Shown: positions 11,850 through 63,040 of the stretch, piece after piece
Position numbering within the stretch: position 1 is the stretch's first letter
Layout: every line of letters begins with the position of its first letter
Assembly (NCBI GenBank): GCA_963741955.1
Contig: CAVUKB010000006.1
Span: 480,002 to 544,001 of the forward strand
Source: an uncultured Acidobacteriota bacterium
GTDB taxonomy: Bacteria; Acidobacteriota; Thermoanaerobaculia; Gp7-AA8
Reading direction: 5' to 3'
Length of the DNA: 64,000 nucleotides
Made by a program: the position numbers and the translations under genes
Notes under the pieces: model-generated
Database searches by the model: none
Seen by the model: only the letters and a program-made list of their open reading frames with translations
Told to the model about the DNA's origin: nothing

Positions 11850-13909
11850 CAATTGCGCGATTTGCGCGATTTGCCATGAATCGGACCGGCGTTTTCGGCT
11901 CCGGACGATTCGCGCCGGCGCGCGACCTTCCCATGAACACGATTTCATTTGCGCGATTTGAAAAACGGGAGGTCTCTTTTCAAATCGCGCAATTGAAATC
12001 ATGGCCGAAGCCTTTTCTCTCTCGATCCGCGCCACTCATCCCTGCCAAGACACCCGATCAACTCAGAGCAAATCGCGCAATTGAAATCATGGCCGAAGCC
12101 CGCTCCCCTTCGATCCACCCCACCCGTCCCTGCCAACACACGCGCTCAATTCATAGCAAATCCCCTCACCGAAGCCACTACCCTCTCGATCGACTCCACT
12201 TTTCCCTGCCAACCCGATCTCATTTGCTATGGATGCGCGGGCGCTCAGCTTCGGCACGTTTCCACCGGCCGGACCGGACGCGCTCCAACGCGATTTCATT
12301 TGCGCGATTTGCCATGGATCGGACGGGTGCTTTCGGCGGCGGCGACTCTCGCGAGCGCACGAGCTTCCCATGAACACGATTTCATTTGCGCGATTTGAGA
12401 ACCGAGCGTTGGTTTTCAAATCGCGCAATTGAAATCACGACCGAAGCCCCCTCCCCCTCGATCCACGGCACCCATCCCTGCCAAGACACCCGATCAACTC
12501 AGAGCAAATCGCGCAAATGAAATCATGGCCGAAGCCCGCTCCCCTTCGATCCACCCCACCCGTCCCTGCCAACACACGCGCTCAATTCATAGCAAATCCC
12601 CTCACCGAAGCCACTACCCTCTCGATCGACTCCACTTTTCCCTGCCAACCCGATCTCATTTGCTATGGATGCGCGGGCGCTCAGCTTCGGCACGTTTCCA
12701 CCGGCCGGACCGGACGCGCTCCAACGCGATTTCATTTGCGCGATTTGCCATGGATCGGACCGGCGTTTTCGGCTCCGGACGATTCGCGCCGGCGCGCGAC
12801 TTTCCCATGAACACGATTTCATTTGCGCGATTTGAAAAACGGGAGGTCTCTTTTCAAATCGCGCAATTGAAATCACGACCGAAGCCCCCTCCCCCTCGAT
12901 CCACGGCACCCATCCCTGCCAAGACACCCGATCAACTCATAGCAAATCGCGCAAATGAAATCATGGCCGAAGCCCGCTCCCCCTCGATCGACTCCACTCT
13001 TCCCTGCCAAGACACCCGACCAACCCATAGCAAATCGCCTCTCCGAAGCCACTACCCTCTCGATCGACTCCACTTTTCCCTGCCAACCCGATCTCATTTG
13101 CTATGGATGCGCGGGCGCTCAGCTCCGGCACGTTTCCTCGCGGCCGGACCGGACACGCTCCAACGCGATTTCATTTGCGCGATTTGCCGTGGATCGGACC
13201 GGCGTTTTCGGCTCCGGACGATTCGCGCCGGCGCGCGACCTTCCCATGAACACGATTTCATTTGCGCGACATAAACCGACGCTCGGTTCTCAAATCGCGC
13301 AATTGAAATCATGGCCGAAGCCCCCTCCGCTTCGATCCACGCCACTCATCCCTGCCAAGACACCCGATCAACTCATAGCAAATCGCGCAATTGAAATCAC
13401 GACCGAAGCCACTACCCTCTCGATCGACTCCACTCTTCCCTGCCAAGACACCCGACCAACCCATAGCAAATCGCCTCTCCGAAGCCACTACCCTCTCGAT
13501 CGACTCCACTTTTCCCTGCCAACCCGATCTCATTTGCTATGGATGCGCGGGCGCTCAGCTTCGGCACGTTTCCACCGGCCGGACCGGACGCGCTCCAACG
13601 CGATTTCATTTGCGCGATTTGCCATGGATCGGACGGGTGCTTTCAGCGGCGGCGACTCTCGCGAGCGCACGAGCTTCCCATGAACACGATTTCATTTGCG
13701 CGATATAAACCGACGCTCGGTTCTCAAATCGCGCAATTGAAATCATGGCCGAAGCCCCCTCCGCTTCGATCCACGCCACTCATCCCTGCCAAGACACCCG
13801 ATCAACTCATAGCAAATCGCGCAAATGAAATCATGGCCGAAGCCCGCTCCCCTTCGATCCACCCTACCCGTCCCTGCCAACACACGCGCTCAATTCATAG
13901 CAAATCCCC
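11850..13909. repeat. Core-motif array A1 (higher-order unit about 436 bp)
   Basis: About 20 copies of GATTTCATTTGCGCGATTT or its reverse complement. Recurring ORF-track starts at 12081, 12517, 12955, 13391 and 13825 give the period. Confidence 0.95.
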
Positions 13910-15091
13910 TCACCCCCGTTTCCGCCTCAGCATCTTCACCCCTCCCTCGATGCCGCGACGGAAGTAGAGCCAGGGGACGAGGACGGCGTGCCTGGTGCGG
14001 AACTTGTCCATCATGTAACGCGGGGAGGGGAACGCGACGCCGCGGAGGAACGCGACGCGGTCGCCCGCCGGCTGGGTCCGCAGCTCGTGAAGAAGATCGC
14101 CGAAGCCTCGCCGTCCGATCCGGACGTAACGCGCGGTGACGTCCGTCGCGACCGACTCGAGCATCCCGAGCTCGTCGCCGCCGATCTTTGTTCCGAACAA
14201 CTTCGCCGTCTTCTCGACGCCGCTCTTCACCGCTGCGGAGACTTCCTTCGCCCTTGCCCGTGCGAAGCACTCCGCACGTTCTTCGCGGGACATCGCGCCG
14301 AGGAGGAGATGGATGTCGTAGAGCCAGATCAGGCGGTCCGACTCGTCGTGGTGTGCGGAGCGGTGGATCGCCGCGTGGATCAGCGCGTCGCTGCGCGAGA
14401 GAGCGCGTGCGGAAGCGCCGAGGCGCGGCACCGGAATGGATCGCCCCCAGAGCCCGCCGAAGACGAAGCGGTCGCGCAGGTCGGCACGGTTGGCGAGCGC
14501 CCAGTGGAGGTCGATGGTGTGGCGCATCCCCGCCGGCCCCTTCTTCAGGTACGGCCGCTCCCGCATCTGGACGTCGGGAACGCCATCCGTCGGCAGCGGC
14601 TCGTAACCGCTCGCGACGAGCACTTCGTGCAGCGCGTCGAGATCCTCCGGGCCGACCAGGAGATCCGTATCCCCGCGGGGGCGAAGGTGCGGCGACGGAT
14701 AGAGCGTGTGGGCGAGCGCCGCTCCCTTCAGCAGGAGGACGTCGATCCGCGCTTCGCCGATCGCGCCGAGGAGCTCCATCAGCTCGCTCTGCTGCAGCAC
14801 CTCGCGGACTGCAGCGTTGCGGGAGCGTTTGCGCAACTCAGTGCGGATCGGGTGATCCGTCTCCCGGGGAAATTCGAGGCGGGCGTGATTCGAAGCGAGC
14901 AGCTCCGTCACTCCGTGTTGCTCGACCAGCTTCACCCAAGGCTCGACATCTGCCGGGGTGAGATCGAAACGGACCTTCGCCTCACCGGCGATGGCCTTCG
15001 CGACTTTCGGGACGATTTCCGAAGAGCTCAAGACAGCTTCCTCCTCGGCGTGCCCCCTCCACGTCGAAAACAGTTTCTTAAGGCGGAACAT
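13910..15091 (-). CDS. Nucleotidyltransferase family protein (NTP_transf_5-like)
   Basis: Motifs LLLKGAALAHTLYP.P.LRPRGDTDLLV, IDLHW and RLIWLYDIHLL. Confidence 0.85.
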   Translation of the reverse strand: MFRLKKLFSTWRGHAEEEAVLSSSEIVPKVAKAIAGEAKVRFDLTPADVEPWVKLVEQHGVTELLASNHARLEFPRETDHPIRTELRKRSRNAAVREVLQQSELMELLGAIGEARIDVLLLKGAALAHTLYPSPHLRPRGDTDLLVGPEDLDALHEVLVASGYEPLPTDGVPDVQMRERPYLKKGPAGMRHTIDLHWALANRADLRDRFVFGGLWGRSIPVPRLGASARALSRSDALIHAAIHRSAHHDESDRLIWLYDIHLLLGAMSREERAECFARARAKEVSAAVKSGVEKTAKLFGTKIGGDELGMLESVATDVTARYVRIGRRGFGDLLHELRTQPAGDRVAFLRGVAFPSPRYMMDKFRTRHAVLVPWLYFRRGIEGGVKMLRRKRG

Positions 15092-15170: not shown

Positions 15171-16408
15171 CATTTGCGCGATTTGCGCGAATGAGGCGAT
15201 TTGCTATGGGTCGGTCGAGTGTTCTGACAGGGATGAGTGGCGTGGGTTGAAGAAAACGGGCTTTGGTGATGATTTCATTTGCGCGATTTGCTATGGGTTG
15301 GTCGGGTGTCCTGGCAGGGATGGGTTCGGTAGCTCGAGCGGGCAGCGGCTCCGGTCATGATTTCATCTGCGCGATTTGAAAAACAACCCAGGTTTCTAAA
15401 TCGCGCAAATGAAATCGTGTTGGAGGCCGTCCCGTCCGACCACGAGGAACCTGCCGAAGCCGAGCGCGCCTGAATCCATGGCAAATGACCCGATTTGCTA
15501 TGGGTTGATCCGCTGTCCTGGCAGGCATGGGCCTGGCAACTCGAGCGGGCAGCGGCTCCGGTGGTGATTTCATTTGCGCGATTTGAAAAACAACCCAGGT
15601 TTCTAAATCGCGCAAATGAAATCGTGTTCGCGAGGTGACTGTGCGGTTGCCGCAATTCTCCGCCACCGAAAGCGCCCGTCCGCTCCATGGCAAATCGCGC
15701 AAATGAAATCGTGTTGGAGGCCGTCCCGTCCGACCACGAGGAACCTGCCGAAGCCGAGCGCGCCTGAATCCATGGCAAATGACGTGGGTTTGCTATGGGT
15801 TGATCCGCTGTCCTGGTAGGCATGGGCCTGGCAACTCGAGCGGGCAGCGGCTTCGGTCATGATTTCATTTGCGCGATTTGAAAAACAACCCAGGTTTCTA
15901 AATCGCGCAAATGAAATCGTGTTCGCGAGGTGACTGTGCGGTTGCCGCAATTCTCCGCCACCGAAAGCGCCCGTCCGCTCCATGGCAAATCGCGCAAATG
16001 AAATCGTGTTGGAGGCCGTCCCGTCCGACCACGAGGAACCTGCCGAAGCCGAGCGCGCCTGAATCCATGGCAAATGACGCGATTTGCTATGGGTTGATCC
16101 GCTGTCCTGGCAGGCATGGGCCTGGCAACTCGAGCGGGCAGCGGCTTCGGTCATGATTTCATTTGCGCGATTTGAAAAACAACCCAGGTTTCTAAATCGC
16201 GCAAATGAAATCGTGTTCGCGAGGTGACTGTGCGGTTGCCGCAACTCTCCGCCACCGAAAGCGCCCGTCCGCTCCATGGCAAATCGCGCAAATGAAATCG
16301 CGTTGGAGCCCGTCCGGTCCGACCACGAGGAACCTGCCGAAGCCGAGCGCGCCTGAATCCATGGCAAATGACGTGGGTTTGCTATGGGTTGATCCGCTGT
16401 CCTGGCAG
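15171..16408. repeat. Core-motif array A2 (unit about 295 bp)
   Basis: Equivalent positions at 15616, 15911 and 16205. Each unit contains a convergent core pair. Confidence 0.95.
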
Positions 16409-16936: not shown

Positions 16937-17224
16937 CGGCAGACCGTCCCCCGCTCCTCAAATCGCGCAAATGAAACCGTGTTCGTGATGTGCCGGTGCG
17001 TCCGCTCGAATCGCCGCCACCCAAAGCGCTCGTCCGATCCATATGCAAATCGCGCAAATGAAATCACGGCAGAATCCGCGCCCCTGAACAATCCACTTCG
17101 GTGCCATCCCAAAACGCCCGTGCACCCGGACGCAAATCCAATCCCCAGATCCACGATCCGCGCGTGGCGGACCGGACTCCACCGAGACCGTCCCCCGCTC
17201 CTCAAATCGCGCAAATCGCGCAAG
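16937..17224. repeat. Core-motif array A3, left part
   Basis: AGACCGTCCCCCGCTCCTCAAATCGCGCAAAT at about 16941 and 17185. The same modules occur in 17932-18618. Confidence 0.9.
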
Positions 17225-17277
17225 TCCGTGGAAGCCACCCCGCGCCGGTCCGGCCCATTCTGCTACTCTTGCCGCTC

Positions 17278-17562
17278 ATGGAATGTGGTCGGATCGTATT
17301 CAGCAGGCACGCGGTCCAGCGGATGTTCGAGCGCTCGTTTGCGATTCCGGACGTGCGCGGCGTGCTCGAACATGGCGAGCTCATTGAAGATTATCCCGAC
17401 GCGACGCCGTACCCGAGCCGGCTTCTCCTGGGCTGGACGCCGGATCGCCGCCCGCTTCACGTCGTGGTGGGGCGGAATCCCGAAGCGGTCTGTTTTGTCG
17501 TGACAGTGTACGAGCCTGACTCGGCCTTCTGGGCCGACGAGTTTCGGCGGAGGAAACGATGA
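17278..17562 (+). CDS. DUF4258-family protein (putative toxin-like RNase fold)
   Basis: FSRHAVQRMFER...GELIEDYPDATPYPSRLLLG...RPLHVVV...VVTVYEPD...W...FRRR. Confidence 0.88.
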   Translation: MECGRIVFSRHAVQRMFERSFAIPDVRGVLEHGELIEDYPDATPYPSRLLLGWTPDRRPLHVVVGRNPEAVCFVVTVYEPDSAFWADEFRRRKR

Positions 17563-17783
17563 TTTGCGCGATCTGTCGAAGTGAAGCGATCTCCGGGGGT
17601 ACGACCACGGTGACGCTGCAGCGCGGCGAGACGACGGTGGTGATTAAAGAAACTCCCGCCGAGATCTGCGGGGATTGCGGAGAGTACTACCTGGCCGAGG
17701 AAGTCGCCACTCGCGTGCTGGAGCAGGCCGAATCGGCCGCGCGGCGGCACGCCGAAGTCGAGATTATCCGGTACGCGGCGTAG
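17559..17783 (+). CDS. YgiT-type zinc-finger protein (MqsA N-domain-like antitoxin)
   Basis: MICAIC...GTTTVTLQRGETTVVIKETPAEICGDCGEYY, with an ATGA overlap with the DUF4258 gene. Confidence 0.88.
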   Translation: MICAICRSEAISGGTTTVTLQRGETTVVIKETPAEICGDCGEYYLAEEVATRVLEQAESAARRHAEVEIIRYAA

Positions 17784-17931
17784 TGACGGCCACCCGGTTT
17801 CCGAAGTCCGACTTGAAACGGAGCGCCCCGTGGCCCGACCGTCCCGGTCGGCACGGCGAGCCGCCCACTTCGAAACCCGCTCCGCGCTCATCCACAAGTC
17901 CGCTCTTCCTCGCGTATAACTCGATCTCCGC

Positions 17932-18618
17932 GGCAGACCGTCCCCCGCTCCTCAAATCGCGCAAATGAAATCACGGCAGAATCCGCGCCCCCGAACAATC
18001 CACTTCGGTGCCATCCCGAAACGCCCGTGCACCCGGACGCAAATCCCGCAAATCAGGCGCTCCGTCGTCCTCGCGTCCAACACGATTCACCGCGGCGGAT
18101 CCCGCAGCGCGGGATCCGCACCCCCCACCAGACCCTCCTCGGCCTCTCAAATCGCGCAAATGAAACCGTGTTCGTGATGGGCCGGCGCGTCCGCTCGAAT
18201 CGCCGCCACCCAAAGCGCTCGTCCGATCCATATGCAAATCGCGCAAATCAAATCACGGCAGAATCCGCGCCCCTGAACAATCCACTTCGGTGCCATCCCA
18301 ACACGCCCGTGCACCCGGACGCAAATCCCGCAAATCAGGCGCTCCGTCGTCCTCGCGTCCAACACGATTCACCGCGGCGGATCCCGCAGCGCGGGATCCG
18401 CACCCCCCACCAGACCCTCCTCGGCCTCTCAAATCGCGCAAATGAAACCGTGTTCGTGATGTGCCGGTGCGTCCGCTCGAATCGCCGCCACCCAAAGCGC
18501 TCGTCCGATCCATATGCAAATCGCGCAAATGAAATCACGGCAGAATTCGCGCCCCTGAACAATCCACTTCGGTGCCATCCCAACACGCCCGTGCACCCGG
18601 ACGCAAATCCCGCAAATC
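17932..18618. repeat. Core-motif array A3, right part (unit 282 bp)
   Basis: Near-identical ORF-track peptides at 17971-18246 and 18253-18528. It contains the GGCGGATCCCGCAGCGCGGGATCCGCACCC hairpin. Confidence 0.93.
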
Positions 18619-18631: not shown

Positions 18632-18675
18632 CCAGATAACCGATAATAGATAATAGATAACAGATCTCAGATAAC
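18632..18675. repeat. Heptamer run (CAGATAA/TAGATAA) at the fcl stop
   Basis: cagataa ccgataa tagataa tagataa cagatct cagataa. Confidence 0.85.
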
Positions 18676-19599: not shown

Positions 19600-19693
19600 T
19601 TACGCTCTCGTTCGGATGTTTGAAGTCGGAAGTCGGATGTCGAAAGTGACGCGCCAGGTTCAGACGCGAAGTGTTCGGCAGCAGCAGACAATC

Positions 19694-21620: not shown

Positions 21621-21678
21621 TCCGAGGAGCTCCCGCAAGCACCCGCGCGCGCAAATGCAAAGCCGCTCACCGTGAGAG

Positions 21679-40476: not shown

Positions 40477-40595
40477 AAAGAATTTGCGCGATTTGCGGGT
40501 GGTTGCTTCTGTGTCGATTTAGAGAGCGAGAATGGTGACGGGTGTGCTCGTCGCGTTGAAGAACGATTTCATTTGCGCGATTGGCGCAAATCCCC

Positions 40596-44562: not shown

Positions 44563-45795
44563 TGCGTGATTTGCTCGATCTCTAGAGATTTGCTCCAACT
44601 TGGGCGAATGTGTTCTTCGGGACGGACGGACGGATTTGCTATGTGTTGAGTGAGTGTCTTCTTCGGGACGGACGGCGCGTTCAGGGCGAGTCGTGCCTTC
44701 GGGGTGATTTCATTTGCGCGATTTGCTCTGGGCCGAGCGGGCGCTCATCTCATGGGCGGGCGGCGCGGGCGGTTCGGGCTGCGGCTTCGAGGACGATCTC
44801 ATTTGCGCGATTTGAAAAGCACGGGAGCATTTGCTCATTGACCGGAGAGTGTCTTCTTCGGGAGGTGCGGCGTGTTCAGGCGATGAGTGGCTTCGAGGCG
44901 ATTTCATTTGCGCGATTTGCTCTGGGCCGAGCGGGCGCTCATCTCATGGGCGGGCGGCGCGGGCGGTTCGGGGAGCGGCTTCGGTGAGGATTTCATTTGC
45001 GCGATTTGAAAGGCACGGGGGGGATTTGCTCATTGTCGGGCGGGTGTCTTCTTCGGGACGGACGGCGCGTTCAGGACGATGAGTGGCTTCGGGCGCGATT
45101 TCATTTGCGCGATTTGCTCTGGGCCGAGCGGGCGTTCATCTCATGGTCGGGCGGCGCGGGCGGTGCGAGCAGCGGCTTCGATGATGATTTCATTTGCGCG
45201 ATTTGAAAAGCACGGGGGGATTTGCTCATTGTCGGGAGGGTGTCTTCTTCGGGACGGACGGCGCGTTCAGGACGACGAGTGGCTCCGGGGTGATTTCATT
45301 TGCGCGATTTGCTCTGGCCCGAGCGGGCGCTCCTCTCATGGTCGGGCGGCGCGGGCGGTTCGAGCAGCGGCTTCGATGATGATTTCATTTGCGCGATTTG
45401 AAAAGCACGGGGGGATTTGCTCATTGTCGGGAGGGTGTCTTCTTCGGGACGGACGGCGCGTTCAGGACGATGAGTGGCTTCGGGGCGATTTCATTTGCGC
45501 GATTTGCTCTGGGCCGAGCGGGCGCTCATCTCATGGTCGGGCGGCGCAGGCGGTTCGAGCAGCGGCTTCGATGATGATTTCATTTGCGCGATTTGAAAAG
45601 CACGGGGGTCTAAATCGCGCAATTCGCGCAAATGAGATCGCGTCGATGCAGAGAGCGCGGCTCCATCCGCAAGCGTCTCGACAGGAAGTGCTCGTCCGTT
45701 CGTAGCAAATGAAATCGCCATCGGAGCCGCCACCGGCACGGTCGCCCGGGTCGAATTGGGAATGAGCGAGCGACCCGATCGGAGCAAATCGCTTC
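44563..45795. repeat. Core-motif array A6 (unit about 195 bp, same subfamily as A5)
   Basis: ORF-track period 44997/45194/45389. Its terminal segment parallels 43030-43215. Confidence 0.95.
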
Positions 45796-46182: not shown

Positions 46183-46310
46183 TTGCTCATTGTTGGGCGA
46201 GTGTCTTCTTCGGGAAGGACGGCGCGCTCAGGACGATGCGTGGCTTCGGGACGATTTCATTTGCGCGATTTGAAAGGCACGGGGGTCTAAATCGCGCAAT
46301 TCGCGCAAAT
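46183..46310. repeat. Single core-motif module with terminal hairpin
   Basis: GATTTCATTTGCGCGATTTGAAAGGCACGGGGGTCTAAATCGCGCAATTCGCGCAAATG. Confidence 0.88.
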
Positions 46311-46808: not shown

Positions 46809-47390
46809 CTAGCGTCCTCCCATGGCGTAAGTTTTCGGCGCAGGCCTCGCGGGCGCGAGGATGTCGCGCTCGAATTCGACCGCGATGGATTTCTGCAGCA
46901 TGGTCACGGAGACGACGAGACGCGTCTGCCCTTTCTCGCGGATGACGAGACCGCGGTAGCCCTGGAAGGCTCCGTCGGTGATCTTCACTTCGTCGCCCGG
47001 ACCGATCCAGGGATGGGGAACGAGCGTCGCCCCCTGCTGCTCGAGGGCGTGGAGCTGCGCGAGCTCGCCGCCGAGGAGCTGCTGGTCGACCACGTCGATG
47101 GTGTTGACCAGGAGCCTGGTCTGCCAGACGGTCAGGCGCTGCTCCTGACGGGGACGGAGGAAGAGGTATCCGGAGAAGAGCGGGTGGTAGGAAAAGTAGG
47201 TTCTCCCCTGGCGGCGCATCCGCTTCTCCACCTGCGGGAGGTAGAACGGGACGCCGGATCGCTCGAGGTGCCGGGCGAGCGATTTCTCCTGGCGGCTGCG
47301 GACGTAGACGATCCACCAGGGGTGCTCGTCGAGGGGGAGCTCGAACAGCTCCGCCGGGTGAAGATCCGCTTCGCGCTTGAGGAGGGGCAT
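46809..47390 (-). CDS. UpxY/RfaH-type NusG-family transcription antiterminator
   Basis: WWIVYVRSRQEK.LA, FYLP, PLFSGYLF (NGN domain); GDEVKITDGAFQGYRG...RLVVSV (KOW). Confidence 0.92.
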   Translation of the reverse strand: MPLLKREADLHPAELFELPLDEHPWWIVYVRSRQEKSLARHLERSGVPFYLPQVEKRMRRQGRTYFSYHPLFSGYLFLRPRQEQRLTVWQTRLLVNTIDVVDQQLLGGELAQLHALEQQGATLVPHPWIGPGDEVKITDGAFQGYRGLVIREKGQTRLVVSVTMLQKSIAVEFERDILAPARPAPKTYAMGGR

Positions 47391-47479: not shown

Positions 47480-49125
47480 GCGGATTTGCTAGAGGAGGGG
47501 GGGAGGGGGGACGGATTTGCTATGGACGCGCGGGTGTCTCCTCGGCCGCGATTTGGGGCGGACGGACGGACTGCGCGCGAACACGATTTCATTTGCGCGA
47601 TTTGCCATGGACGGAGCGGGCGCTCACCTCAGGAACGGGCGGCGCGGACGGTTCGAGCAGCGGCTTCGGGAGTGATTTCATTTGCGCGATTTAGAAGCAC
47701 CGGGGGACGGGGGACGGATTTGCTATGGACGCGCGGACGCGGGACCGATTTGCTATGGACGGATGGGCGCGGGGCCGATTTGCTATGGACGCGCGGGTGT
47801 CTCCTCGGCGGACCATTCGTGGTGGACCGACGGGCTGCGCTCGAACGCGATTTCATTTGCGCGATTTGCCATGGACGGACCGCCGTCTCCTCGGCCGCGA
47901 TCTCGGATGGACGGACGGGCGGCGGGGTAACACGATTTCATTTGCGCGATTTAAAAGCACCGGGGGAGGGGGGACGGATTTGCTATGGACGCGCGGGTGT
48001 CTCCTCGGCCGCGATTTGGGGCGGACGGACGGACTGCGCGCGAACACGATTTCATTTGCGCGATTTGCCATGGACGGAGCGGGCGCTCACCTCAGGAACG
48101 GGCGGCGCGGACGGTTCGAGCAGCGGCTTCGGGAGTGATTTCATTTGCGCGATTTAGAAGCACCGGGGGATTTGCTCATTGTCGGGAGAGTGTCTTCTTC
48201 GGGACGTGCGGCGCGACCAGGACGATGAGTGGCTCCGGGGTGATTTCATTTGCGCGATTTGCTCTGGCCCGAGCGGGCGCTCATCTCATGGTCGGGCGGC
48301 GCGGACGGTTCGAGCAGCGGCTTCGGGAGCGATTTCATTTGCGCGATTTAGAAGCACCGGGGGACGGGGGACCGATTTGCTATGGACGGGCGGACGCGGG
48401 ACGGATTTGCTATCGACGGACGGGCGTCTTCTCGGCGGACCATTCGTGGTGAACCGACGGGCGGCGCTCGAACGCGATTTCATTTGCGCGATTTGCCATG
48501 GACGGAGCGGGCGCTCACCTCAGGAACGGGCGGCGCGGACGGTTCGAGCAGCGGCTTCGGGAGTGATTTCATTTGCGCGATTTAGAAGCACCGGGGGACG
48601 GGGGACCGATTTGCTATGGACGGGTGGGCGCGGGACCGATTTGCTATCGACGGACGGGCGTCTTCTCGGCGGACCATTCGTGGTGAACCGACGGGCGGCG
48701 CTCGAACGCGATTTCATTTGCGCGATTTGCCATCGATGGATCGTGCGCTCATCTCAGGAACGGGCGGCGCGGACGGTTCGAGCAGCGGCTTCGGGAGCGA
48801 TTTCATTTGCGCGATTTAGAAACGGCGGCGGGTTTTCAAATCGCGCAATTGAAATCATCTTCGGAGCCGCAGAGCTCTCGGTCCTCGGCGCCGGTTCAGG
48901 GAGGAGACGTCCGATCGAGCTATAGCAAATCGCGCAAATGAAATCGTCTTCGGAGTCGCGGATGGTGCGAGTTGCCACGCTCGTCCCGAGAGAAGACACC
49001 GGTTCAACCTATAGCAAATGGGAACGTCCTCGGAGCCGCGGATGGTGCGGCCATGAGTAAGGTGTCCGGGAGAAGACACCGGTTCAACCCATAGCAAATC
49101 AAAACGTCATCGGAGCCAGGGCTTT
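47480..49125. repeat. Core-motif array A8 (mixed modules; periods about 234 and 463 bp)
   Basis: About 16 cores. It contains one A5/A6-type module (48170-48340), and the orientation flips at 48799-48856. Confidence 0.93.
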
Positions 49126-50808: not shown

Positions 50809-50829
50809 GGTGGTGGAGAGATTATATTT

Positions 50830-52370
50830 GATTTCGGGAGAGAGGCGGGGAGGGGACGGATTTGCTATGGAGGCACTGGCGTCTTGTCGGCAGCGATTTG
50901 GGGCGGACGGATGGGTCGCGCTTGAACACGATTTCATTTGCGCGATTTGCTATGGATCGAGCGGGCGCTTATCTCAGGAACGGGCGGCGCGGACGGTTCG
51001 AGCAGCGGCTTCGGGAGTGATTTCATTTGCGCGATTTAGAGGCAGGGACGGATTTGCTATGAACGGACGGGTGTCTCTTCGGCCGGCGATCTCGGATGGA
51101 CGGACGGGGGAGGGACGGATTTGCTATGGACGCGCGGGTGTCTCCTCGGCGGACCATTCGTGGTGGACCGACGGACTGCGCGCGAACACGATTTCATTTG
51201 CGCGATTTGCCATGGAACGGACCGCCGTCTCCTCGGCCGCGATCTCGGATGGACGGACAGGCGGCGGGGTAACACGATTTCATTTGCGCGATTTAAAAGC
51301 ACCGGGGGACGCGGGACGGATTTGCTATGGAGGCACTGGCGTCTTGTCGGCAGCGATTTGGGGCGGACGGATGGGTCGCGCTTGAACACGATTTCATTTG
51401 CGCGATTTGCTATGGATCGAGCGGGCGCTCATCTCAGGAACGGGCGGCGCGGACGGTTCGAACATCGGCTTCGGGAGTGATTTCATTTGCGCGATTTAGA
51501 GGCAGGGACGGATTTGCTATGAACGGACGGGTGTCTCTTCGGCCGGCGATCTCGGATGGACGGACGGGGGAGGGGCCGATTTGCTATGGACGCGCGGGTG
51601 TCTCCTCGGCGGACCATTCGTGGTGGACCGACGGGCTGCGCTCGAACGCGATTTCATTTGCGCGATTTGCCATGGAACGGACCGCCGTCTCCTCGGCCGC
51701 GATCTCGGATGGACGGACGGGCGGCGGGGTAACACGATTTCATTTGCGCGATTTAAAAGCACCGGGGGACGGGGGACGGATTTGCTATGGACGGCACTGG
51801 CGTCTTGTCGGCAGCGATTTGGGGCGGACGGATGGGTCGCGCTTGAACACGATTTCATTTGCGCGATTTGCCATGGACGGAGCGGGCGCTCATCTCAGGA
51901 ACGGGCGGCGCGGACGGTTCGAACATCGGCTTCGGGAGTGATTTCATTTGCGCGATTTAGAGGCAGGGACGGATTTGCTATGAACGGACGGGTGTCTCTT
52001 CGGCCGGCGATCTCGGATGGACGGACGGGCAGCGGGGTAACGCGATTTCATTTGCGCGATTTGCCATGGACGCGCGGACGTCTTCTCGGCGGCGATTTGA
52101 GCCGGACGGACGGGCCGCGCTTGAATGCGATTTCGTTTGCGCGATTTAGAAACGGCGGCGGGTTTTCAAATCGCGCAATTGAAATCGTCGTCGGAGTCGC
52201 CGATCGCTCGGGCCACGGCGCCGGTTCAGGGAGAAGACGCCCGATCGAGCCATGGCAAATCGCGCAAATGAAATCGTCCTCGGAGCCGCGGATGGTGCGG
52301 GTTGCCACGCTCGCCCCCGAGTAAAGACACCGGCTCAATCCATAGCAAATAGGATCGTCCTCGGAGTCGC
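50830..52370. repeat. Core-motif array A9 (unit 460 bp)
   Basis: ORF-track duplicates at 51057/51517 and 51121/51581. The orientation flips at 52129-52186. Confidence 0.94.
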
Positions 52371-52851: not shown

Positions 52852-52854
52852 GCA

Positions 52855-53990
52855 GGTATTTGCTGGGGGCGCGGGACCGATTTGCCATGGACGCGCGGAC
52901 GTCTTCTCGGCAGCGATTTTGGATGGACGGGCTGGTCGCGCTTGAACACGATTTCATTTGCGCGATTTGCTATGGATCGAGCGGGCGCTCATCTCAGGAA
53001 CGGGCGGCGCCGAAGGTTCGAGCATCGGCTTCGGGAGTGATTTCATTTGCGCGATTTAGAAGCGGCGACGGGGTTTTGAATCGCGCAAATGAAATCGCTG
53101 TCGGAGTCGGTGCTCCTCCGGATGACGGTACTGGATCAGGGAAGAGACGCTCGATCGACCTATGGCAAATCGCGCAATTGAAATCGTCCTCGGAGGCGTG
53201 GATGCAGCGAGTTGCCACGCTCGCCCCAGAAGAGACACCCGTTCAAGCCATAGCAAATCAAGAAGCTGTCGAAGCCACGAATCACCCCGCGCACGAAACC
53301 GGTTCGGAAGAGCGACGCCCGTTCATCAGCGGGCTTTAAATCGCGCAATTGAAATCGCTGTCGGAGTCGGTGCTCCTCCGGATGACGGTACTGGATCAGG
53401 GAAGAGACGCTCGATCGACCTATGGCAAATCGCGCAAATGAAATCGTCCTCGGAGCCGGCGATCGCTCGGGTTGCGACGCTCGCTCCCGAGAAGAGATGC
53501 TCCTTCAATCCATAGCAAATAGGAACGTCCTCGGAGTCGTGGATCGCTCGAGTTGCCACGCTCGCCCCCGAGAAAGACACCGGTTCAATCCATAGCAAAT
53601 CAAGAAGCTGTCGAAGCCACGAATCACCCCGCGCACGAAACCGGTTCGGAAGAGCGACGCCCGTTCATCAGCGGGCTTTAAATCGCGCAATTGAAATCGC
53701 TGTCGGAGTCGGTGCTCCTCCGGATGACGGTACTGGATCAGGGAAGAGACGCTCGATCGATCTATGGCAAATCGCGCAAATGAAATCGTCCTCGGAGCCG
53801 GCGATCGCTCGGGTTGCGACGCTCGCTCCCGAGAAGAGACGCTCCTTCAATCCATAGCAAATAGGAACGTCCTCGGAGTCGTGGATCGCTCGAGTTGCCA
53901 CGCTCGCCCCCGAGAAAGACACCGGTTCAATCCATAGCAAATCGAAACGAGAGACGCCCGCTCACTCCATAGCAAATCGGACGATTTCGC
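52855..53990. repeat. Core-motif array A10 (unit 342 bp)
   Basis: Near-identical ORF-track peptides at 53326-53598 and 53668-53940. Confidence 0.94.
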
Positions 53991-54757: not shown

Positions 54758-54849
54758 CGAGAATCAAAATTCGAGGATTGACAGAGATCCGCGATTGCCG
54801 AGGGCAGCGTCTGGTAGGCCATTATGTCGGGTCCTGATAGCTGTCTGGT

Positions 54850-55269: not shown

Positions 55270-55314
55270 GTCAGTCCATTTCCTCTCGCAAGCGGTCAGG
55301 TTACCGACAAGCCA

Positions 55315-55443
55315 CCCCAGGACTGCGTCCTGGGCTATGGTCAATCGCCCCTACGGGCTGTCCCCCCGATGCCTTTCAGATCCTCGATCCTCGATGCCTT
55401 TCAGATCCTCGATCCTCGATGGGTTTCAGATACCAGATGCTTT
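55315..55443 (-). repeat. REP family B copy followed by an inverted heptamer block overlapping the wzc stop
   Basis: CCCCAGGACTGCGTCCTGGGCTATGGTCAATCGCCCCTACGGGCT, then GATGCCTTTCAGATCCTCGATCCTC repeats. Confidence 0.88.
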
Positions 55444-60014: not shown

Positions 60015-63000
60015 CTATTGGGGGGTGCGGATCCTCTGATCCGCCGCGAAGATCGTGGCTTCCGCGACGATGACCGTGCCTGGGGTCATTCGCGGAGCGG
60101 CTTCTCGCGAGTGCGGCTTCGCTTCTGCCACGAGCGTCGTCTCGATCCGCTCCGAACATGATCCGCGCGGCGGATCGGAGGGTCCGCACCCCTCGGCGCA
60201 AACGTGATTCGCGCGGTGGAAGAGAGGTTCCGCCGCCCTCGGCGTTCGTGGCGGGTTTTCAAATCGCGCAATTGAAATCGCTGTCGAAGGCACGAACTGC
60301 ACCGGCCACGGAACCAGTTCGGAAGATGGACGCCCGTTCGGTCCATGGCAAATCGCGCAAATGGAATCGTGATCGGAGCCGTGGATCTCTCGGGTTACTC
60401 GAGCGCTCTCCGGGAAGAGACGCCCGTTCGGGCTATAGCAAATGCTTCTGCCACAGGCATCGTCTCGATACGCTTCGAACGAGATTCGCGCGGCGGATCG
60501 GAGGATCCGCACCCCTCGGCGCGAACGTGATTCGCGCGGTGGAAGAGAGGTTCCGCCGCCCTCGGCGTTCGTGGCGGGTTTTCAAATCGCGCAATTGAAA
60601 TCGCTGTCGAAGGCACGAACTGCACCGGCCACGGAACCAGTTCGGAAGATGGACGCCCGTTCGGTCCATGGCAAATCGCGCAAATGGAATCGTGATCGGA
60701 GCCGTGGATCTCTCGGGTTACTCGAGCGCTCTCCGGGAAGAGACGCCCGTTCGGGCTATAGCAAATGCTTCTGCCACAGGCGTCGTCTCGATCCGCTCCG
60801 AACATGATCCGCGCGGCGGATCGGAGGGTCCGCACCCCTCGGCGCAAACGTGATTCGCGCGGTGGAAGAGAGGTTCCGCCGCCCTCGGCGTTCGTGGCGG
60901 GTTTTCAAATCGCGCAATTGAAATCGCTGTCGAAGGCACGAACTGCACCGGCCACGGAACCAGTTCGGAAGATGGACGCCCGTTCGGTCCATGGCAAATC
61001 GCGCAAATGGAATCGTGATCGGAGCCGTGGATCTCTCGGGTTACTCGAGCGCTCTCCGGGAAGAGACGCCCGTTCGGGCTATAGCAAATGCTTCTGCCAC
61101 AGGCGTCGTCTCGATACGCTACGAACGGGATTCGCGCGGCGGATCCCGCAACGCGGGATCCGCACCCCTCGGCGCAAACGTGATTCGCGCGGTGGAAGAG
61201 AGGTTCCGCCGCCCTCGGCGTTCGTGGCGGGTTTTCAAATCGCGCAATTGAAATCGCTGTCGAAGGCACGAACTGCACCGACCACGGAACCGGTTCGGAA
61301 GATGGACGCCCGTTCGGTCGATGGCAAATCGCGCAAATGAAATCGTGATCGGAGCCGTGGATCTCTCGGGTTACTCGAGCGCTCTCCGGGAAGAGACGCC
61401 CGTTCGGGCTATAGCAAATGCTTCTGCCACAGGCATCGTCTCGATCCGCTCCGAACATGATCCGCGCGGCGGATCGGAGGATCCGCACCCCTCGGCGCGA
61501 ACGTGATTCGCGCGGTGGAAGAGAGGTTCCGCAGCCCTCGGCGTTCGTGGCGGGTTTTCAAATCGCGCAATTGAAATCGCTGTCGAAGGCACGAACTGCA
61601 CCGACCACGGAACCAGTTCGGAAGATGGACGCCCGTTCGGTCCATGGCAAATCGCGCAAATGGAATCGTGATCGGAGCCGTGGATCTCTCGGGTTACTCG
61701 AGCGCTCTCCGGGAAGAGACGCCCGTTCGGGCTATAGCAAATGCTTCTGCCACAGGCGTCCTCTCGAACCGCTTCGAACATGATCCGCGCGGCGGATCGG
61801 AGGATCCGCACCCCTCGGCGCGAACGTGATTCGCGCGGTGGAAGAGAGGTTCCGCCGCCCTCGGCGTTCGTGGCGGGTTTTCAAATCGCGCAATTGAAAT
61901 CGCTGTTGAAGGCACGAACTGCACCGACCACGGAACCGGTTCGGAAGATGGACGCCCGTTCGGTCGATGGCAAATCGCGCAAATGAAATCGTGATCGGAG
62001 CCGTGGATCTCTCGGGTTACTCGAGCGCTCTCCGGGAAGAGACGCCCGTTCGGGCTATAGCAAATGCTTCTGCCACAGGCATCGTCTCGATCCGCTCCGA
62101 ACGGGATCCGCGCGGCGGATCGGAGGATCCGCACCCCTCGGCGCAAACGTGATTCGCGCGGTGGAAGAGAGGTTCCGCCGCCCTCGGCGTTCGTGGCGGG
62201 TTTTCAAATCGCGCAATTGAAATCGCTGTCGAAGGCACGAACTGCACCGACCACGGAACCGGTTCGGAAGATGGACGCCCGTTCGGTCCATGGCAAATCG
62301 CGCAAATGGAATCGTGATCGGAGCCGTGGATCTCTCGGGTTACTCGAGCGCTCTCCGGGAAGAGACGCCCGTTCGGGCTATAGCAAATGCTTCTGCCACA
62401 GGCGTCGTCTCGATACGCTACGAACGGGATTCGCGCGGCGGATCGGAGGATCCGCACCCCTCGGCGCGAACGTGATTCGCGCGGTGGAAGAGAGGTTCCG
62501 CCGCCCTCGGCGTTCGTGGCGGGTTTTCAAATCGCGCAATTGAAATCGCTGTCGAAGGCACGAACTGCACCGACCACGGAACCGGTTCGGAAGATGGACG
62601 CCCGTTCGGTCCATGGCAAATCGCGCAAATGAAATCGTGATCGGAGCCGTGGATCTCTCGGGTTACTCGAGCGCTCTCCGGGAAGAGACGCCCGTTCGGG
62701 CTATAGCAAATGCTTCTGCCACAGGCGTCCTCTCGAACCGCTTCGAACATGATCCGCGCGGCGGATCGGAGGATCCGCACCCCTCGGCGCGAACGTGATT
62801 CGCGCGGTGGAAGAGAGGTTCCGCCGCCCTCGGCGTTCGTGGCGGGTTTTCAAATCGCGCAATTGAAATCGCTGTTGAAGGCACGAACTGCACCGACCAC
62901 GGAACCGGTTCGGAAGATGGACGCCCGTTCGGTCCATGGCAAATCGCGCAAATGAAATCGTGATCGGAGCCGTGGATCTCTCGGGTTACTCGAGCGCTCT

Positions 63001-63040
63001 CCGGGAAGAGACGCCCGTTCGGGCTATAGCAAATGCTTCT
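60015..63040. repeat. Core-motif array A11: about 9 tandem copies of a 323-bp unit
   Basis: ORF-track starts at 60345, 60668, 60991, 61321, 61644, 61967, 62290, 62613 and 62936. Each unit has two cores plus a GGCGGATCGGAGGATCCGCACCC hairpin. Confidence 0.97.

What the first reader, a model, noticed from the sequence alone, without database searches (positions are those of the whole stretch)
11850..63040. Top candidate: satellite-like higher-order repeat system threaded through an EPS operon
Seen: about ten intergenic arrays (11850-13909, 15171-16408, 16937-18618, 41660-43221, 44563-45795, 46183-46310, 47480-49125, 50830-52370, 52855-53990, 60015-63040) totalling about 14-15 kb. All share the near-invariant core GATTTCATTTGCGCGATTT(G), at roughly 120-130 copies by manual estimate. 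Each array has its own homogenised higher-order unit (about 436, 295, 282, 196, 460, 342 and 323 bp) built from diverged monomers, an organisation like eukaryotic higher-order satellites. The core stays fixed while spacers diverge between arrays, which implies selection or a sequence-specific mechanism. It does not match CRISPR, attC or the local RAYT REPs. Inference, alternatives: (a) multivalent binding platform for a DNA-binding protein; (b) substrate for a trans-acting nuclease or recombinase that amplifies units and captures small genes; (c) transcribed array processed into small RNAs with constant ends.
Basis: partly seen in the sequence, partly recalled or inferred. Interest (0 to 1): 0.9.

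Follow-up and report, generated by a model that had tools for sequence, protein, structure and literature searches.

The report
Lineage-specific intergenic repeat arrays
The gene cluster for a soil bacterium's sugar coat is padded with kilobase arrays of a non-coding repeat of about 88 bases that keeps an unchanging AT-rich core; the arrays are real and unusually large, but they are one of several such repeat families in this genome and look like REP/BIME-type extragenic elements, not a device specific to the sugar-coat genes.

Summary
The core GATTTCATTTGCGCGATTT occurs 120 times in the window (0 in shuffles), and 119 of these lie in the ten arrays named. TRF recovers the stated higher-order units (436, 294, 282, 199/195, 460, 342 and 323 bp).

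The unit is a monomer of 85-90 bp: a conserved GATTTGCYATGG tail, a diverged G-rich spacer of about 57 bp, and the core. The core is 2.5 copies of the 9-mer ATTTGCGCG. It is about three times poorer in recent differences than the spacer.

Monomers are non-coding, have no conserved fold on either strand and carry no sigma-70-like promoter. Cores that meet head to head form hairpins with stems of about 24 bp. Tails often abut stop codons.

The family is not specific to the EPS cluster. 112 of 236 monomers lie beside housekeeping genes elsewhere. The genome also holds 184 kb of tandem arrays, from at least three other abundant families and some smaller ones, several of them palindromic and REP-like.

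Nothing like it was found in 123 genomes of the same family, in 185,579 species genomes or in metagenomes.

Best reading: a lineage-specific REP/BIME-like extragenic repeat that expanded by unequal recombination, with its core kept by a sequence-specific protein not yet identified. The protein partner, the function and the exact copy numbers remain unproven.

The parts
11850..13909 (.). Array A1: 19 monomers in the pattern +--++--++--++--++--, with a 436-bp higher-order unit x4.7 and five head-to-head core hairpins. It lies between the priming glycosyltransferase gene (9612-11510, -) and the NTP_transf_5 gene (13910-15091, -). The repeat starts 3 bp after that gene's stop codon.
15171..16408 (.). 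Array A2: 12 monomers (++-+--+--+--), with a 294-bp unit x3.4 at 97% and four head-to-head hairpins.
16937..18618 (-). Array A3: 7 monomers, all on -, with a 282-bp unit x2.4. It is split by a non-repeat insert of about 0.9 kb (17066-17953) that carries a DUF4258 / MqsA-like toxin-antitoxin pair on +. It lies downstream of the epimerase gene 18667-19599 (-).
40489..40582 (+). Solitary monomer between the gmd and asnB-like genes. Its tail TGAGGGGATTTGC supplies the gmd stop codon, and a short ATTTGCGC/GCGCAAAT hairpin follows it.
41660..43221 (.). Array A4: 15 monomers (13 on +, 2 on -), with a 199-bp unit x6.2 and one head-to-head hairpin at 43003/43047. It fills the spacer between UDP-glucose dehydrogenase (43222-44598, -) and Gmd (40596-41657, -). 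The Gmd start codon sits on the terminal CAAATG.
44563..45795 (.). Array A5: 12 monomers (10 on +, 2 on -), with a 195-bp unit x5.0. It is 84% identical to A4 over 1190 bp. It lies between the cupin gene (45796-46182, -) and the UDP-glucose dehydrogenase gene.
46183..46310 (+). Mini-array A6: one monomer plus a run of two 9-mers, directly upstream of the cupin gene start.
47480..49125 (.). Array A7: 15 monomers (12 on +, 3 on -), with units of 260 and 234 bp and a hairpin at 48799/48838. It begins 90 bp upstream of the UpxY/RfaH-like NusG paralog gene (46809-47390, -).
50830..52370 (.). Array A8: 14 monomers (12 on +, 2 on -), with a 460-bp unit x2.6 at 98% and a hairpin at 52129/52168. It lies upstream of a membrane protein gene whose likely true start is near 50808.
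52855..53990 (.). Array A9: 10 monomers (2 on +, 8 on -), with a 342-bp unit x2.2 and a hairpin at 53039/53078. It lies between the four-helix-bundle gene (52252-52851, +) and the CpsB-like phosphatase gene (53927-54757, -).
60015..63040 (-). Array A10: 18 monomers, all on -, with a 323-bp unit x9.0 at 96%. Each unit is a mosaic of two core-family monomers and two copies of a different, palindromic repeat (GCGGATCCTCCGATCCGC family). It lies about 1 kb from the contig end.
11551..11582 (+). Run of 3.6 tandem copies of the 9-mer ATTTGCGCG, about 40 bp upstream of the priming glycosyltransferase start. This is the elementary module of the family.
46809..47390 (-). Context only, not a repeat: the UpxY/RfaH-like NusG paralog. 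It has the only sigma-70-like site found in 40400-54000 (TTGACC-16-GATACT, 47442-47415, -).

Best explanation
This is a lineage-specific, non-coding extragenic repeat family of the REP/BIME kind.

Shown:
- The elementary module is the 9-mer ATTTGCGCG.
- Solitary elements are short runs of 2-5 such 9-mers, some paired with an inverted run. The F (forward) run often starts 3-5 bp after a stop codon.
- The common form is a monomer of 85-90 bp: tail GATTTGCYATGG, a G-rich spacer, and the core GATTTCAWTTGCGCGATTTG.
- Monomers stand head to tail. Where + and - blocks meet, two cores form a hairpin with a stem of about 24 bp. Tails face the flanking genes.
- The core is held almost invariant while the spacers drift.

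Inferred:
- Arrays grew by unequal recombination or replication slippage into locally homogenised higher-order units. They sometimes took in flanking bases, other repeat families, or small mobile genes such as the TA pair.
- The core is the recognition site of a trans-acting, sequence-specific protein, either the enzyme that seeds new copies or a DNA-binding host protein.
- The pile-up in the EPS cluster reflects tolerance, not purpose. This operon carries its own UpxY/RfaH-like antiterminator, so kilobases of untranslated spacer between co-directional genes would not cause the polarity they would cause elsewhere.
- As RNA, the head-to-head hairpins may act like REP/BIME stem-loops, as barriers that protect 3' ends or as processing sites.
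For: Anatomy:
- Of 96 core-to-core units, all are 85-90 bp long and 82 are unique.
- The genome holds 236 HMM monomers covering 22 kb, 124 of them in the window.
- The 9-mer occurs 296 times against about 40 expected, and there are 28 runs of two or more copies.
- Some solitary sites pair a run with an inverted run; others are a single run.

Constraint on the core:
- Differences between nearest-neighbour monomers number 45 of 3649 in the core, 5 of 1338 in the 5' block and 492 of 12177 in the spacer. The odds ratio is 0.24.

Not RNA, coding or promoter:
- RNAalifold gives an empty consensus on both strands for 25 representatives, and mean MFE z-scores are +0.34 and +0.51.
- Unit lengths are not multiples of three, and the core's ATG is lost in 22 CAATTG variants.
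- No sigma-70-like site falls inside any array.

Hairpins:
- The window has 14 head-to-head pairs. The five folded pairs give -30 to -42 kcal/mol, with z from -5 to -9.

Gene boundaries:
- 11 of 31 tail-to-stop boundaries lie within 5 bp of the stop codon. For tail-to-start boundaries the figure is 1 of 21 (examples).

Generic, not EPS-specific:
- Arrays elsewhere flank housekeeping genes.
- The genome has 244 tandem-repeat regions totalling 183.7 kb, 134 of them with a period of 100 bp or more. They come from other families, including palindromic ones. One of these has 356 copies.
- Three strong Y1 transposase genes are each flanked by arrays of a repeat family other than the core family; the sequences were read for two of them.
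- A10 is a mosaic of two families.

Young and lineage-specific:
- The core was found in 0 of 40 relatives.
- BLAST with a 676-bp unit gave only marginal hits of 25-59 bp in 6 of 123 genomes of the family.
- The double 9-mer occurs 37 times here, and once each in 3 of 123 relatives.
- 27 single, unrelated hits were found in the collection of 185,579 species genomes.
- Two metagenome scans found nothing.

Expansion of formerly short spacers:
- UGDH-Gmd is about 61 bp in one relative (L065) and 1564 bp here.
- 16 relatives' loci around the NusG paralog hold 0-659 bp of long-period repeats, against 5214 bp here.

Precedent:
- Tandemly repeated REP/REPIN clusters of up to 12 units occur in Pseudomonas fluorescens SBW25 (PMC3116915, sections 11-12 read).
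Against: - No enzyme is linked to the family. None of the 11 Y1 transposase hits is flanked by it, other than the window's RAYT, which has its own different REPs.
- No + / - pair of elements encloses a gene.
- The monomer and the core are not palindromic, unlike REPs.
- No empty-site or target-duplication evidence could be obtained, because no congeneric genome exists in the collections.
- The tight length conservation (85-90 bp across subfamilies that differ by about 40% in the spacer) and the depletion of recent changes in the core would fit a host function equally well.
- More than half of all monomers sit in one 51-kb locus. The tolerance argument explains this only by inference.
- The closeness to stop codons rests on my own crude gene calls (GC3-filtered ORFs).
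Confidence: 0.5

Rival explanations
1. Host-beneficial multivalent binding platform. The 9-mer boxes and cores would be operator-like sites for a DNA-binding protein, for example a ribbon-helix-helix type that reads tandem short boxes, or a nucleoid or boundary protein. The arrays would insulate, silence or organise the flanking genes, above all the EPS cluster.
For: - The core and the 5' block are depleted in recent changes.
- Monomer length is held at 85-90 bp.
- There is no RNA structure, and array orientation is symmetric about genes, which points to action at the DNA level.
- The core is AT-rich in a genome of about 63% GC.
- Tandem 9-mers sit at fixed distances from stop codons.
Against: - No candidate protein was found.
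- The family is missing from all 123 genomes of the same family that were searched, which is unusual for a host regulatory site.
- The flanking genes share no function.
- Several unrelated families show the same array behaviour in this genome.
Confidence: 0.2
2. Recombination substrate for EPS variation. Same-orientation, near-identical arrays flanking single genes (UGDH, the cupin gene, the 588-aa membrane protein gene) would drive frequent RecA-dependent deletion or amplification of those genes, giving heritable variation in the polysaccharide.
For: - A4 and A5 flank the UGDH gene in the same orientation and share 84% identity over 1190 bp.
- A7 and A8 flank the 588-aa gene and share 69-87% identity over 0.6-1.2 kb.
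- Small accessory genes lie embedded in the arrays.
Against: - This would be a consequence of any direct repeats, and no variant junctions could be shown. Logan joints through the cores have short sides (20-34 letters for all the long-range joints) and are ambiguous.
- Arrays elsewhere do not bracket variable genes.
Confidence: 0.1
3. Cis element of the UpxY/RfaH-like antiterminator. The cores would recruit the NusG paralog in the manner of ops sites, or the C-rich untranslated spacers would be Rho entry sites that make the operon depend on the paralog.
For: - A UpxY/RfaH-like gene lies inside the cluster, with an array 90 bp upstream.
- The central arrays are C-rich and unstructured on the transcribed strand.
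- In 4 of 16 relatives an unrelated tandem repeat of over 200 bp lies within about 1.2 kb of the orthologue.
Against: - 112 of 236 monomers lie in loci without any NusG paralog, which is single-copy in the genome.
- Array orientation relative to transcription is not constant. A1-A3 and A10 put the G-rich or neutral strand in the RNA.
- The enrichment of repeats near the orthologues is weak, and long leaders are where repeats can sit anyway.
Confidence: 0.07
4. Transcribed array processed into small RNAs with constant ends.
For: Constant cores at regular spacing and stable hairpins at the 14 head-to-head junctions.
Against: - There is no consensus structure or covariation in the monomers on either strand.
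- No promoter-like sites lie in the arrays.
- Both orientations occur relative to the flanking genes.
- No Rfam family matches the arrays.
Confidence: 0.03
5. Assembly artefact: the arrays or their copy numbers come from mis-assembly of a metagenome-derived genome.
For: - The window lies at a contig end, and several arrays lie near contig ends.
- The only public run holding the locus is kept as short contigs that break at every array.
Against: - Array copies differ from each other by 2-10% in ordered higher-order patterns.
- All 30 bins of the laid stretch have cover at 95% identity or more from the run's contigs, and 147 of the 348 laid contigs fit two places. The run may be the source sample, so this is not independent support.
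- Unique-to-repeat junctions at genes are recovered in those contigs (table 8).
- The same families recur on six contigs.
Confidence: 0.04

Closest known systems
Tandemly repeated REP/REPIN clusters (Pseudomonas fluorescens SBW25; Bertels and Rainey 2011, PMC3116915; passages and sections 11-12 read)
   Same: Both are short conserved extragenic motifs at fixed spacing in ordered tandem arrays that include flanking sequence. Both have inverted doublets that form hairpins, several families per genome, and are lineage-specific.
   Different: The core here is AT-rich and not palindromic. Only 28 of 120 cores sit in hairpin doublets. No RAYT is flanked by this family. Arrays reach 18-25 monomers and 3 kb, against up to 12 REPs in a tandem array and about 700 bp for the largest REPIN cluster reported there.
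BIMEs of enterobacteria (mosaics of REPs and linker motifs; named in the introduction of PMC3116915, details recalled)
   Same: Both are extragenic mosaics built from a few conserved modules in regular order, placed between genes of operons and after stop codons. Array A10 alternates two different families.
   Different: BIMEs alternate REP orientation at every unit and are tens to hundreds of bp long. Here, long same-orientation blocks meet at a single turn.
MIRUs of mycobacteria (minisatellites; abstract of PMC3635867 seen in a search listing, structural details recalled)
   Same: Both have tandem units of tens of bp up to about 100 bp in intergenic spacers of operons, and the repeats touch the stop and start codons of flanking genes.
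   Different: As I recall, MIRUs carry small ORFs in frame with the flanking genes' stops and starts. Here unit lengths are not multiples of three and the ATG is not conserved.
Eukaryotic higher-order satellites such as alpha satellite (recalled)
   Same: Both have diverged monomers nested in locally homogenised higher-order units, and a short conserved box within a variable monomer.
   Different: The scale here is kilobases, not megabases. The arrays are dispersed in gene spacers, and there is no evidence of a role in chromosome segregation.
Integron attC / CALIN cassette arrays (recalled)
   Same: In both, genes, including a TA pair, are bracketed by inverted copies of a repeat end (GCAAAT...ATTTGC).
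   Different: The monomers have no single-strand fold. The spacers hold up to 15 monomers, where an integron has a single attC site. Most bracketed genes are core EPS enzymes that are syntenic in relatives.

Membership tests
REP/REPIN-RAYT system | Each unit is a short imperfect palindrome | tested here: not met
   25 representative monomers give no consensus structure on either strand, with mean MFE z of +0.34 and +0.51.
REP/REPIN-RAYT system | Units occur mainly as inverted doublets that fold into a hairpin (REPIN) | tested here: inconclusive
   14 head-to-head pairs (28 of 120 cores) exist; the five folded give -30 to -42 kcal/mol. The other 92 cores stand head to tail.
REP/REPIN-RAYT system | A Y1 (RAYT) transposase gene is flanked by the family's own repeats | tested here: not met
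   There are 11 Y1_Tnp hits in the genome. Only the window's gene lies within 2.5 kb of core copies, and its immediate flanks are a different REP family. Two other Y1 genes are likewise flanked by arrays of other families.
REP/REPIN-RAYT system | Extragenic location, often just after stop codons | tested here: met
   All arrays lie between called genes. 11 of 31 tail-to-stop boundaries lie within 5 bp of the stop codon. The gene calls are my own crude ones.
BIME-like mosaic | Regular combination of different conserved modules in one array | tested here: met
   The 323-bp unit of A10 holds two core monomers plus two copies of the GCGGATCCTCCGATCCGC family. 28 of 244 repeat regions carry markers of more than one family.
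BIME-like mosaic | REP orientation alternates from unit to unit | tested here: not met
   Most arrays are blocks of + followed by blocks of -. Only A1 and A2 alternate, and they do so in pairs.
MIRU-type minisatellite | Tandem units of tens of bp up to about 100 bp in intergenic spacers of operons | tested here: met
   Units are 85-90 bp and lie between co-directional EPS genes.
MIRU-type minisatellite | Small ORFs in the units overlapping the stop and start codons of flanking genes (feature recalled) | tested here: not met
   Unit lengths of 85-90 bp are not multiples of three. The core ATG is replaced in 22 of 120 copies. Stops occur early in several subfamilies.
CRISPR array | Identical repeats separated by unique spacers | tested here: not met
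   The spacers align with each other along their whole length and share conserved islands.
Integron attC sites | Imperfect palindrome that folds as single-stranded DNA | tested here: not met
   The monomers have no fold. An integrase gene was not searched for.
MITE | Terminal inverted repeats around a short non-coding body | tested here: inconclusive
   Some solitary elements are inverted runs of 9-mers 50-130 bp apart. Others are one-sided runs.
MITE | Target-site duplications and an autonomous partner encoding a transposase | not testable with these tools
   No empty sites are available, as no congeneric genome is held. No + / - element pair encloses a gene.
Structured small RNA / Rfam family | Conserved secondary structure or a match to a curated model | tested here: not met
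   Rfam at gathering thresholds gives 4 hits in the window, none in the arrays. RNAalifold gives an empty consensus.

The most novel reading that the evidence does not exclude
The invariant 9-mer-based core is the landing site of a lineage-specific DNA-binding protein that marks gene ends. Runs start 3-5 bp after stop codons, and the protein acts as a roadblock or insulator. In the EPS operon, stacks of these sites between every gene would form a graded barrier that only RNA polymerase modified by the cluster's own UpxY/RfaH-like antiterminator can cross. The arrays would then set how far transcription reaches into the operon, and so the composition of the polysaccharide.
Probability: 0.06. 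Interest if true: 0.85.

Novelty: new variant of a known kind. Interest (0 to 1): 0.48.

Why it matters
If the reading is right, this genome is an extreme case of extragenic repeat proliferation in a bacterium. About 3.4% of it is tandem arrays from several lineage-specific families. One of those families is built on a non-palindromic 9-mer, unlike the usual REP hairpin, and is packed into an operon that carries its own antiterminator.

This gives a natural test of two open questions:
- What keeps a short core fixed while arrays turn over: a selfish enzyme or a host protein?
- Does processive antitermination make operons permissive for kilobases of untranslated spacer?

It also shows how higher-order, satellite-like organisation can arise in a prokaryote.

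On the practical side, the arrays break assemblies and create false ORFs and false start codons, for example at 50937.

Tried and rejected
Ideas tested and dropped:
- Small ORFs starting at the core's ATG (MKS...). One subfamily gives a 30-codon frame ending in ATGA, but other subfamilies stop early, unit lengths vary from 85 to 90 bp, and 22 copies lack the ATG.
- tRNA-derived units. ARAGORN finds no tRNA in the window. The resemblance to a T-loop box was by eye only.
- Promoter arrays. No sigma-70-like site lies inside any array. Sigma-54, ECF and Bacteroidetes-type consensus sequences, compared by eye from memory, did not fit.
- Replication origin at the GC-skew switch near 41 kb. The skew is local and comes from the arrays, and contig-wide skew is weak.
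- Rho-entry (C-rich RNA) as a general property. It holds only for the central arrays.
- A link to NusG paralogs elsewhere. The paralog is single-copy.
- A link to Y1 transposases.
- Repeats near NusG-paralog orthologues in relatives. Some 21-bp and 86-bp arrays lie nearby, but the enrichment is weak.

Searches that found nothing useful:
- Homology in plasmids and phages: no match.
- Metagenome scans: no match for two cores 60-90 bp apart, or for the 26-mer core plus tail.
- Literature. Searches for bacterial higher-order repeats, for Acidobacteria with NusG paralog and EPS, and for Acido-Lenti-1 found nothing describing this family. The paper I recall on REPs close to stop codons (Liang, Rudd and Deutscher 2015) was not found in the library and is cited from memory only.

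Sequencing runs:
- No RNA holder is listed for the locus.
- The one DNA holder (X1, a soil metagenome kept as Logan contigs) covers the genes but breaks at the arrays. Its joints through cores have short sides (20-34 letters for all the long-range joints), so neither copy number nor deletion variants could be judged.

Limits on the tallies:
- The tallies (family) include the unpublished genomes G061 and G022. Those (relatives) include G022. The counts '0 of 40', 'x of 123' and '58 of 123' rest partly on them. No sequence from them was fetched.

Full report
**Observation.** The 19-base core GATTTCATTTGCGCGATTT, with up to two mismatches, occurs 120 times in the window and never in 100 dinucleotide-preserving shuffles. 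Of these, 80 are exact, 36 have one mismatch and 4 have two. Tandem Repeats Finder recovers the stated higher-order units: 436 bp x4.7, 294 x3.4, 282 x2.4, 199 x6.2, 195 x5.0, 234 x2.5, 460 x2.6, 342 x2.2 and 323 x9.0, with 90-98% matches within arrays. For six of the nine multi-copy arrays the longest self-match reaches 87-98% identity; A7 gives 80%, and A8 and A9 give 64% and 68% over long alignments. Identity between arrays is mostly 67-84%. Neighbouring arrays are the most alike, for example A4/A5 at 84% over 1190 bp. Only the exact copy numbers remain unchecked.

**Anatomy.** I oriented every copy by its core and cut the 96 core-to-core units that are 80-95 bp long. This gives a monomer of 85-90 bp: 43 are 89 bp, 19 are 86, 13 are 87, 12 are 88, 6 are 85 and 3 are 90. 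82 are unique. A monomer has a tail GATTTGCYATGG, a G-rich spacer of about 57 bp with a few half-conserved islands (CGGGCG, GGCTTCG), and the core. The forward strand of all monomers has a GC skew of +0.15 and an AT skew of -0.23. An HMM built from these monomers finds 236 copies covering 22 kb in the genome, 124 of them in the window. The core is itself 2.5 copies of the 9-mer ATTTGCGCG. That 9-mer occurs 296 times in the genome, against about 40 expected from composition and 4-81 for seven rearranged control words. There are 28 runs of 2-5 tandem 9-mers. About 20 of them lie outside monomer arrays, and some are paired with an inverted run 50-130 bp away.

**Orientation.** Monomers stand head to tail in blocks. 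In nearly every array a + block is followed by a - block, so two cores meet head to head. The window has 14 such junctions. The five I folded form hairpins with stems of about 24 bp, at -30 to -42 kcal/mol and z from -5 to -9. Beyond the cores, the two sides of a junction belong to different subfamilies and do not pair. Tails face outward, towards the genes.

**Constraint on the core.** Among 60 representative monomers (under 85% identical to one another), the majority-base fraction is 0.94 over the 20 core columns, 0.87 over the 8-column 5' block and 0.60 over the 68 spacer columns. Recent changes also avoid the core. In 184 nearest-neighbour pairs (at least 88% identical), differences number 45 of 3649 in the core, 5 of 1338 in the 5' block and 492 of 12177 in the spacer. 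The odds ratio is 0.24. The pairs are not independent, so the Fisher P of 4e-30 overstates the case. The changes that do occur in the core pile up at three positions, and TTGCGCG hardly varies.

**What it is not.**
- It is not coding. Unit lengths are not multiples of three. The ORFs that run through arrays fall below the GC3 level of real genes. The ATG inside the core is replaced in 22 copies. The apparent start of the 588-aa gene at 50937 is such an artefact; the likely start is near 50808, ahead of a hydrophobic segment.
- It is not a structured RNA. RNAalifold returns an empty consensus on both strands for 25 representatives, and single-sequence MFE z-scores average +0.34 and +0.51. Rfam has no match in the arrays.
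- It is not a promoter stack. The only sigma-70-like site between 40400 and 54000 lies in front of the NusG paralog, outside the arrays.
- It is not CRISPR, because the spacers are paralogous to one another.
- It is not attC-like, because the monomers have no fold.
- It is not the REP family of the neighbouring Y1 transposase (19671-20291). That gene is flanked by GC-rich hairpin repeats of another family, which form the 308-bp array at 20294-21629.

**Gene context in the window.** The cluster is a polysaccharide locus on the minus strand. It encodes:
- a priming glycosyltransferase, an NTP_transf_5 protein, an epimerase, several glycosyltransferases and an asparagine synthase-like protein
- Gmd, UDP-glucose dehydrogenase and a cupin
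- a UpxY/RfaH-like NusG paralog and a membrane protein of unknown family
- a CpsB-like phosphatase, Wzc and Wza

Eight of the ten arrays fill spacers between co-directional genes. Read in gene orientation, a stop codon is followed within a few bases by forward monomers (TGAGGGGATTTGC..., TGAGAAGAGATTTGC...). A hairpin turn comes next, followed by many reverse monomers that end at or near the next start; the Gmd and cupin starts lie on the terminal CAAATG. A DUF4258/MqsA-like TA pair, a small ORF pair and a four-helix-bundle gene lie embedded in or between arrays.

**Beyond the window.** The core occurs 208 times in the genome, 120 of them in the window. The other 88 lie in arrays or as single copies on contigs C1, C4, C5, C7 and C13, plus one copy on C6 outside the window. 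The flanking genes there have nothing in common. They encode an rRNA methyltransferase and a type II secretion ATPase, a Ser/Thr kinase and DUF5996, LeuRS-LptE and ribosomal protein S20, Nuo subunits, UvrA and a short-chain dehydrogenase, GuaA and SelA, YchF and others. The NusG paralog is single-copy. The proposed tie to polysaccharide loci and to four-helix-bundle/TA genes therefore does not hold outside this window.

**A positional rule.** Across 39 element clusters, 11 of 31 boundaries where a tail faces a stop codon lie within 5 bp of that codon. Only 1 of 21 boundaries facing a start lies that close (sequences). The gene calls are my own GC3-filtered ORFs, so this count needs repeating with a proper gene caller. 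The bases between stop codon and repeat differ from site to site, so the stop codon is not simply part of the element.

**The genome-wide picture changes the reading.**
- TRF on the whole genome finds 244 tandem-repeat regions of at least 120 bp, 183.7 kb in all (3.4% of 5.44 Mb). 134 of them (154 kb) have periods of 100 bp or more.
- By marker motifs, the core family accounts for 30 regions. At least three other abundant families account for 29-45 regions each: GTGGGTTGG..., GCGGATCCTCCGATCCGC and GCCGGCATCC.... Smaller families also exist, and 28 regions mix families.
- The GCGGATCC family has 356 copies here and none in 40 relatives. Two of its copies sit in every 323-bp unit of array A10.
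- The three strongest of the 11 Y1 transposase hits are each flanked by arrays of a family other than the core family. One of these families is the Rfam 'Acido-Lenti-1 RNA' motif, with five copies on one side of the gene and three inverted copies on the other.

Higher-order arrays around a short conserved motif are thus a habit of this genome, mostly involving REP-like palindromes. The finding is the one abundant family whose motif is not a palindrome.

**Distribution.**
- The core was found in 0 of 40 relatives, mostly one genome per genus.
- BLAST with a 676-bp unit gave only marginal hits of 25-59 bp (E 3e-4 to 8e-4) in 6 of 123 genomes of the same family.
- The double 9-mer occurs 37 times here, and once each in 3 of 123 relatives.
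- A scan of 185,579 species genomes gave 27 single hits with no flanking similarity, largely inside what look like coding regions.
- Two metagenome scans gave none.
- Plasmid and phage collections gave none.
- No other genome of the same genus is held.

These tallies include the unpublished genomes G061 and G022.

In relatives, the orthologous genes are syntenic with short spacers. UGDH-Gmd is about 61 bp between HSP ends in L065, against 1564 bp here, and NusG paralog-Gmd-Fcl recurs. Sixteen relatives' loci around the paralog hold 0-659 bp of long-period repeats, against 5214 bp in the matching 20 kb here. The arrays are therefore recent expansions of spacers that were once compact.

**Mechanism.**
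- Shown: the modular anatomy, the constrained core, the lack of coding, fold and promoter signals, the hairpins at the turns, the closeness to stop codons, the generic genomic distribution, the lineage specificity, and the coexistence with REP/RAYT-type families that form the same kind of arrays.
- Inferred: arrays grow by unequal recombination or slippage. This fits the array-specific homogenisation, the mosaic A10, the 127-bp direct repeat at 96% identity on both sides of the TA insert, and internal monomers that carry the same GCAAATGC(C/T)C as the cupin gene start.
- Inferred: the core is kept because a sequence-specific protein needs it. No enzyme could be tied to the family, so whether that protein is a mobilising enzyme or a host DNA-binding protein stays open.
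- Inferred: tolerance best explains the concentration in the EPS cluster. The operon has its own UpxY/RfaH-like antiterminator, whose orthologues head the Gmd-Fcl operon in relatives. Outside the cluster, four of the six largest arrays lie between convergent genes. This is inference only.

**Comparison with known systems.** The closest described case is the ordered tandem REP/REPIN clusters of Pseudomonas fluorescens SBW25. Their authors took those clusters as a sign of a second mechanism of cluster formation (PMC3116915, sections 11-12 and discussion passages read). BIMEs and MIRUs share the intergenic, modular, tandem nature. The present family fails the defining tests of REPs (palindromic unit, own RAYT) and of MIRUs (in-frame small ORFs). 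I therefore file it as a new variant of the extragenic-repeat kind, not as a member of any named family.

**Limits.** The genome appears to derive from a soil metagenome, to judge from the only public run that holds the locus. That run is kept as contigs that break at the arrays, so copy numbers and structural variants could not be checked, and no RNA run was listed.

Noticed in passing
whole genome G000 (e.g. C5:1098763-1104338, C1:82847-86434, C5:1165254-1168627): The genome carries 244 tandem-repeat regions of at least 120 bp, 183.7 kb or 3.4% in all. 134 have periods of 100 bp or more. They are built from several lineage-specific families, most with GC-rich hairpin motifs. The family in the finding is only one of them.
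   Followed up: partly
window 7283-7327, 7350-7394 (-) and 9493-9537 (+); L074 (G000:C7:939500-944000) 1657-1991 (-) and 2562-2778 (+): Copies of the Rfam 'Acido-Lenti-1 RNA' motif flank a DDE_5 transposase gene in the window in inverted orientation. On contig C7 they flank a Y1 (IS200-like/RAYT-like) transposase gene, five copies on one side and three inverted on the other. The motif behaves like the REP of a RAYT, not like a free-standing small RNA.
   Followed up: partly
window 19671-20291 (+) and 20294-21629: A Y1 transposase (IS200/RAYT-like) is flanked by GC-rich hairpin repeats. These form their own 308-bp higher-order array (x4.3), unrelated to the core family.
   Followed up: partly
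window 46809-47390 (-), promoter-like site 47442-47415: A UpxY/RfaH-like NusG paralog lies inside the EPS cluster. It is single-copy in the genome. Orthologues (about 50% identity) occur in 58 of 123 genomes of the same family, often heading a Gmd-Fcl operon with a spacer of about 565 bp.
   Followed up: partly
L058 11281-11797, L066 10761-11083, L063 10259-10482, L068 7375-7610, L072 10314-10583: In several relatives, unrelated tandem repeats lie within about 0.1-2.6 kb of the NusG-paralog orthologue. Most have 21-bp periods, one has 86 bp, and one is an inverted pair of blocks of 6 and 16 units. The statistical support for an association is weak.
   Followed up: partly
window 17101-17562 (+) and 17559-17783 (+): A DUF4258 / MqsA-like toxin-antitoxin pair is inserted in array A3, with a 127-bp direct repeat of array sequence (96% identical) on either side.
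   Followed up: no
window 54706-55431: This element is bounded by inverted GATC-rich 7-mer/25-mer repeats (ATCGAGG..ATCTGAAAGGC), like those at the ends of the DDE_5 insertion at 7171-9630. Logan contigs of run X1 show very high summed depth here (190.9) and joints that skip 606-647 bp. It may be a multi-copy, possibly polymorphic insertion between the cpsB-like and wzc genes.
   Followed up: no
window 3534-3608 (-): A c-di-GMP-I riboswitch (57 bits) lies upstream of the 1009-aa ORF at 307-3336 (-).
   Followed up: no
window 52252-52851 (+): A four-helix-bundle protein (TIGR02436 / 23S_rRNA_IVP family) sits tail to tail between arrays A8 and A9, on the strand opposite to the operon. The annotated ORF start lies inside a repeat monomer and is probably too far upstream.
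   Followed up: no
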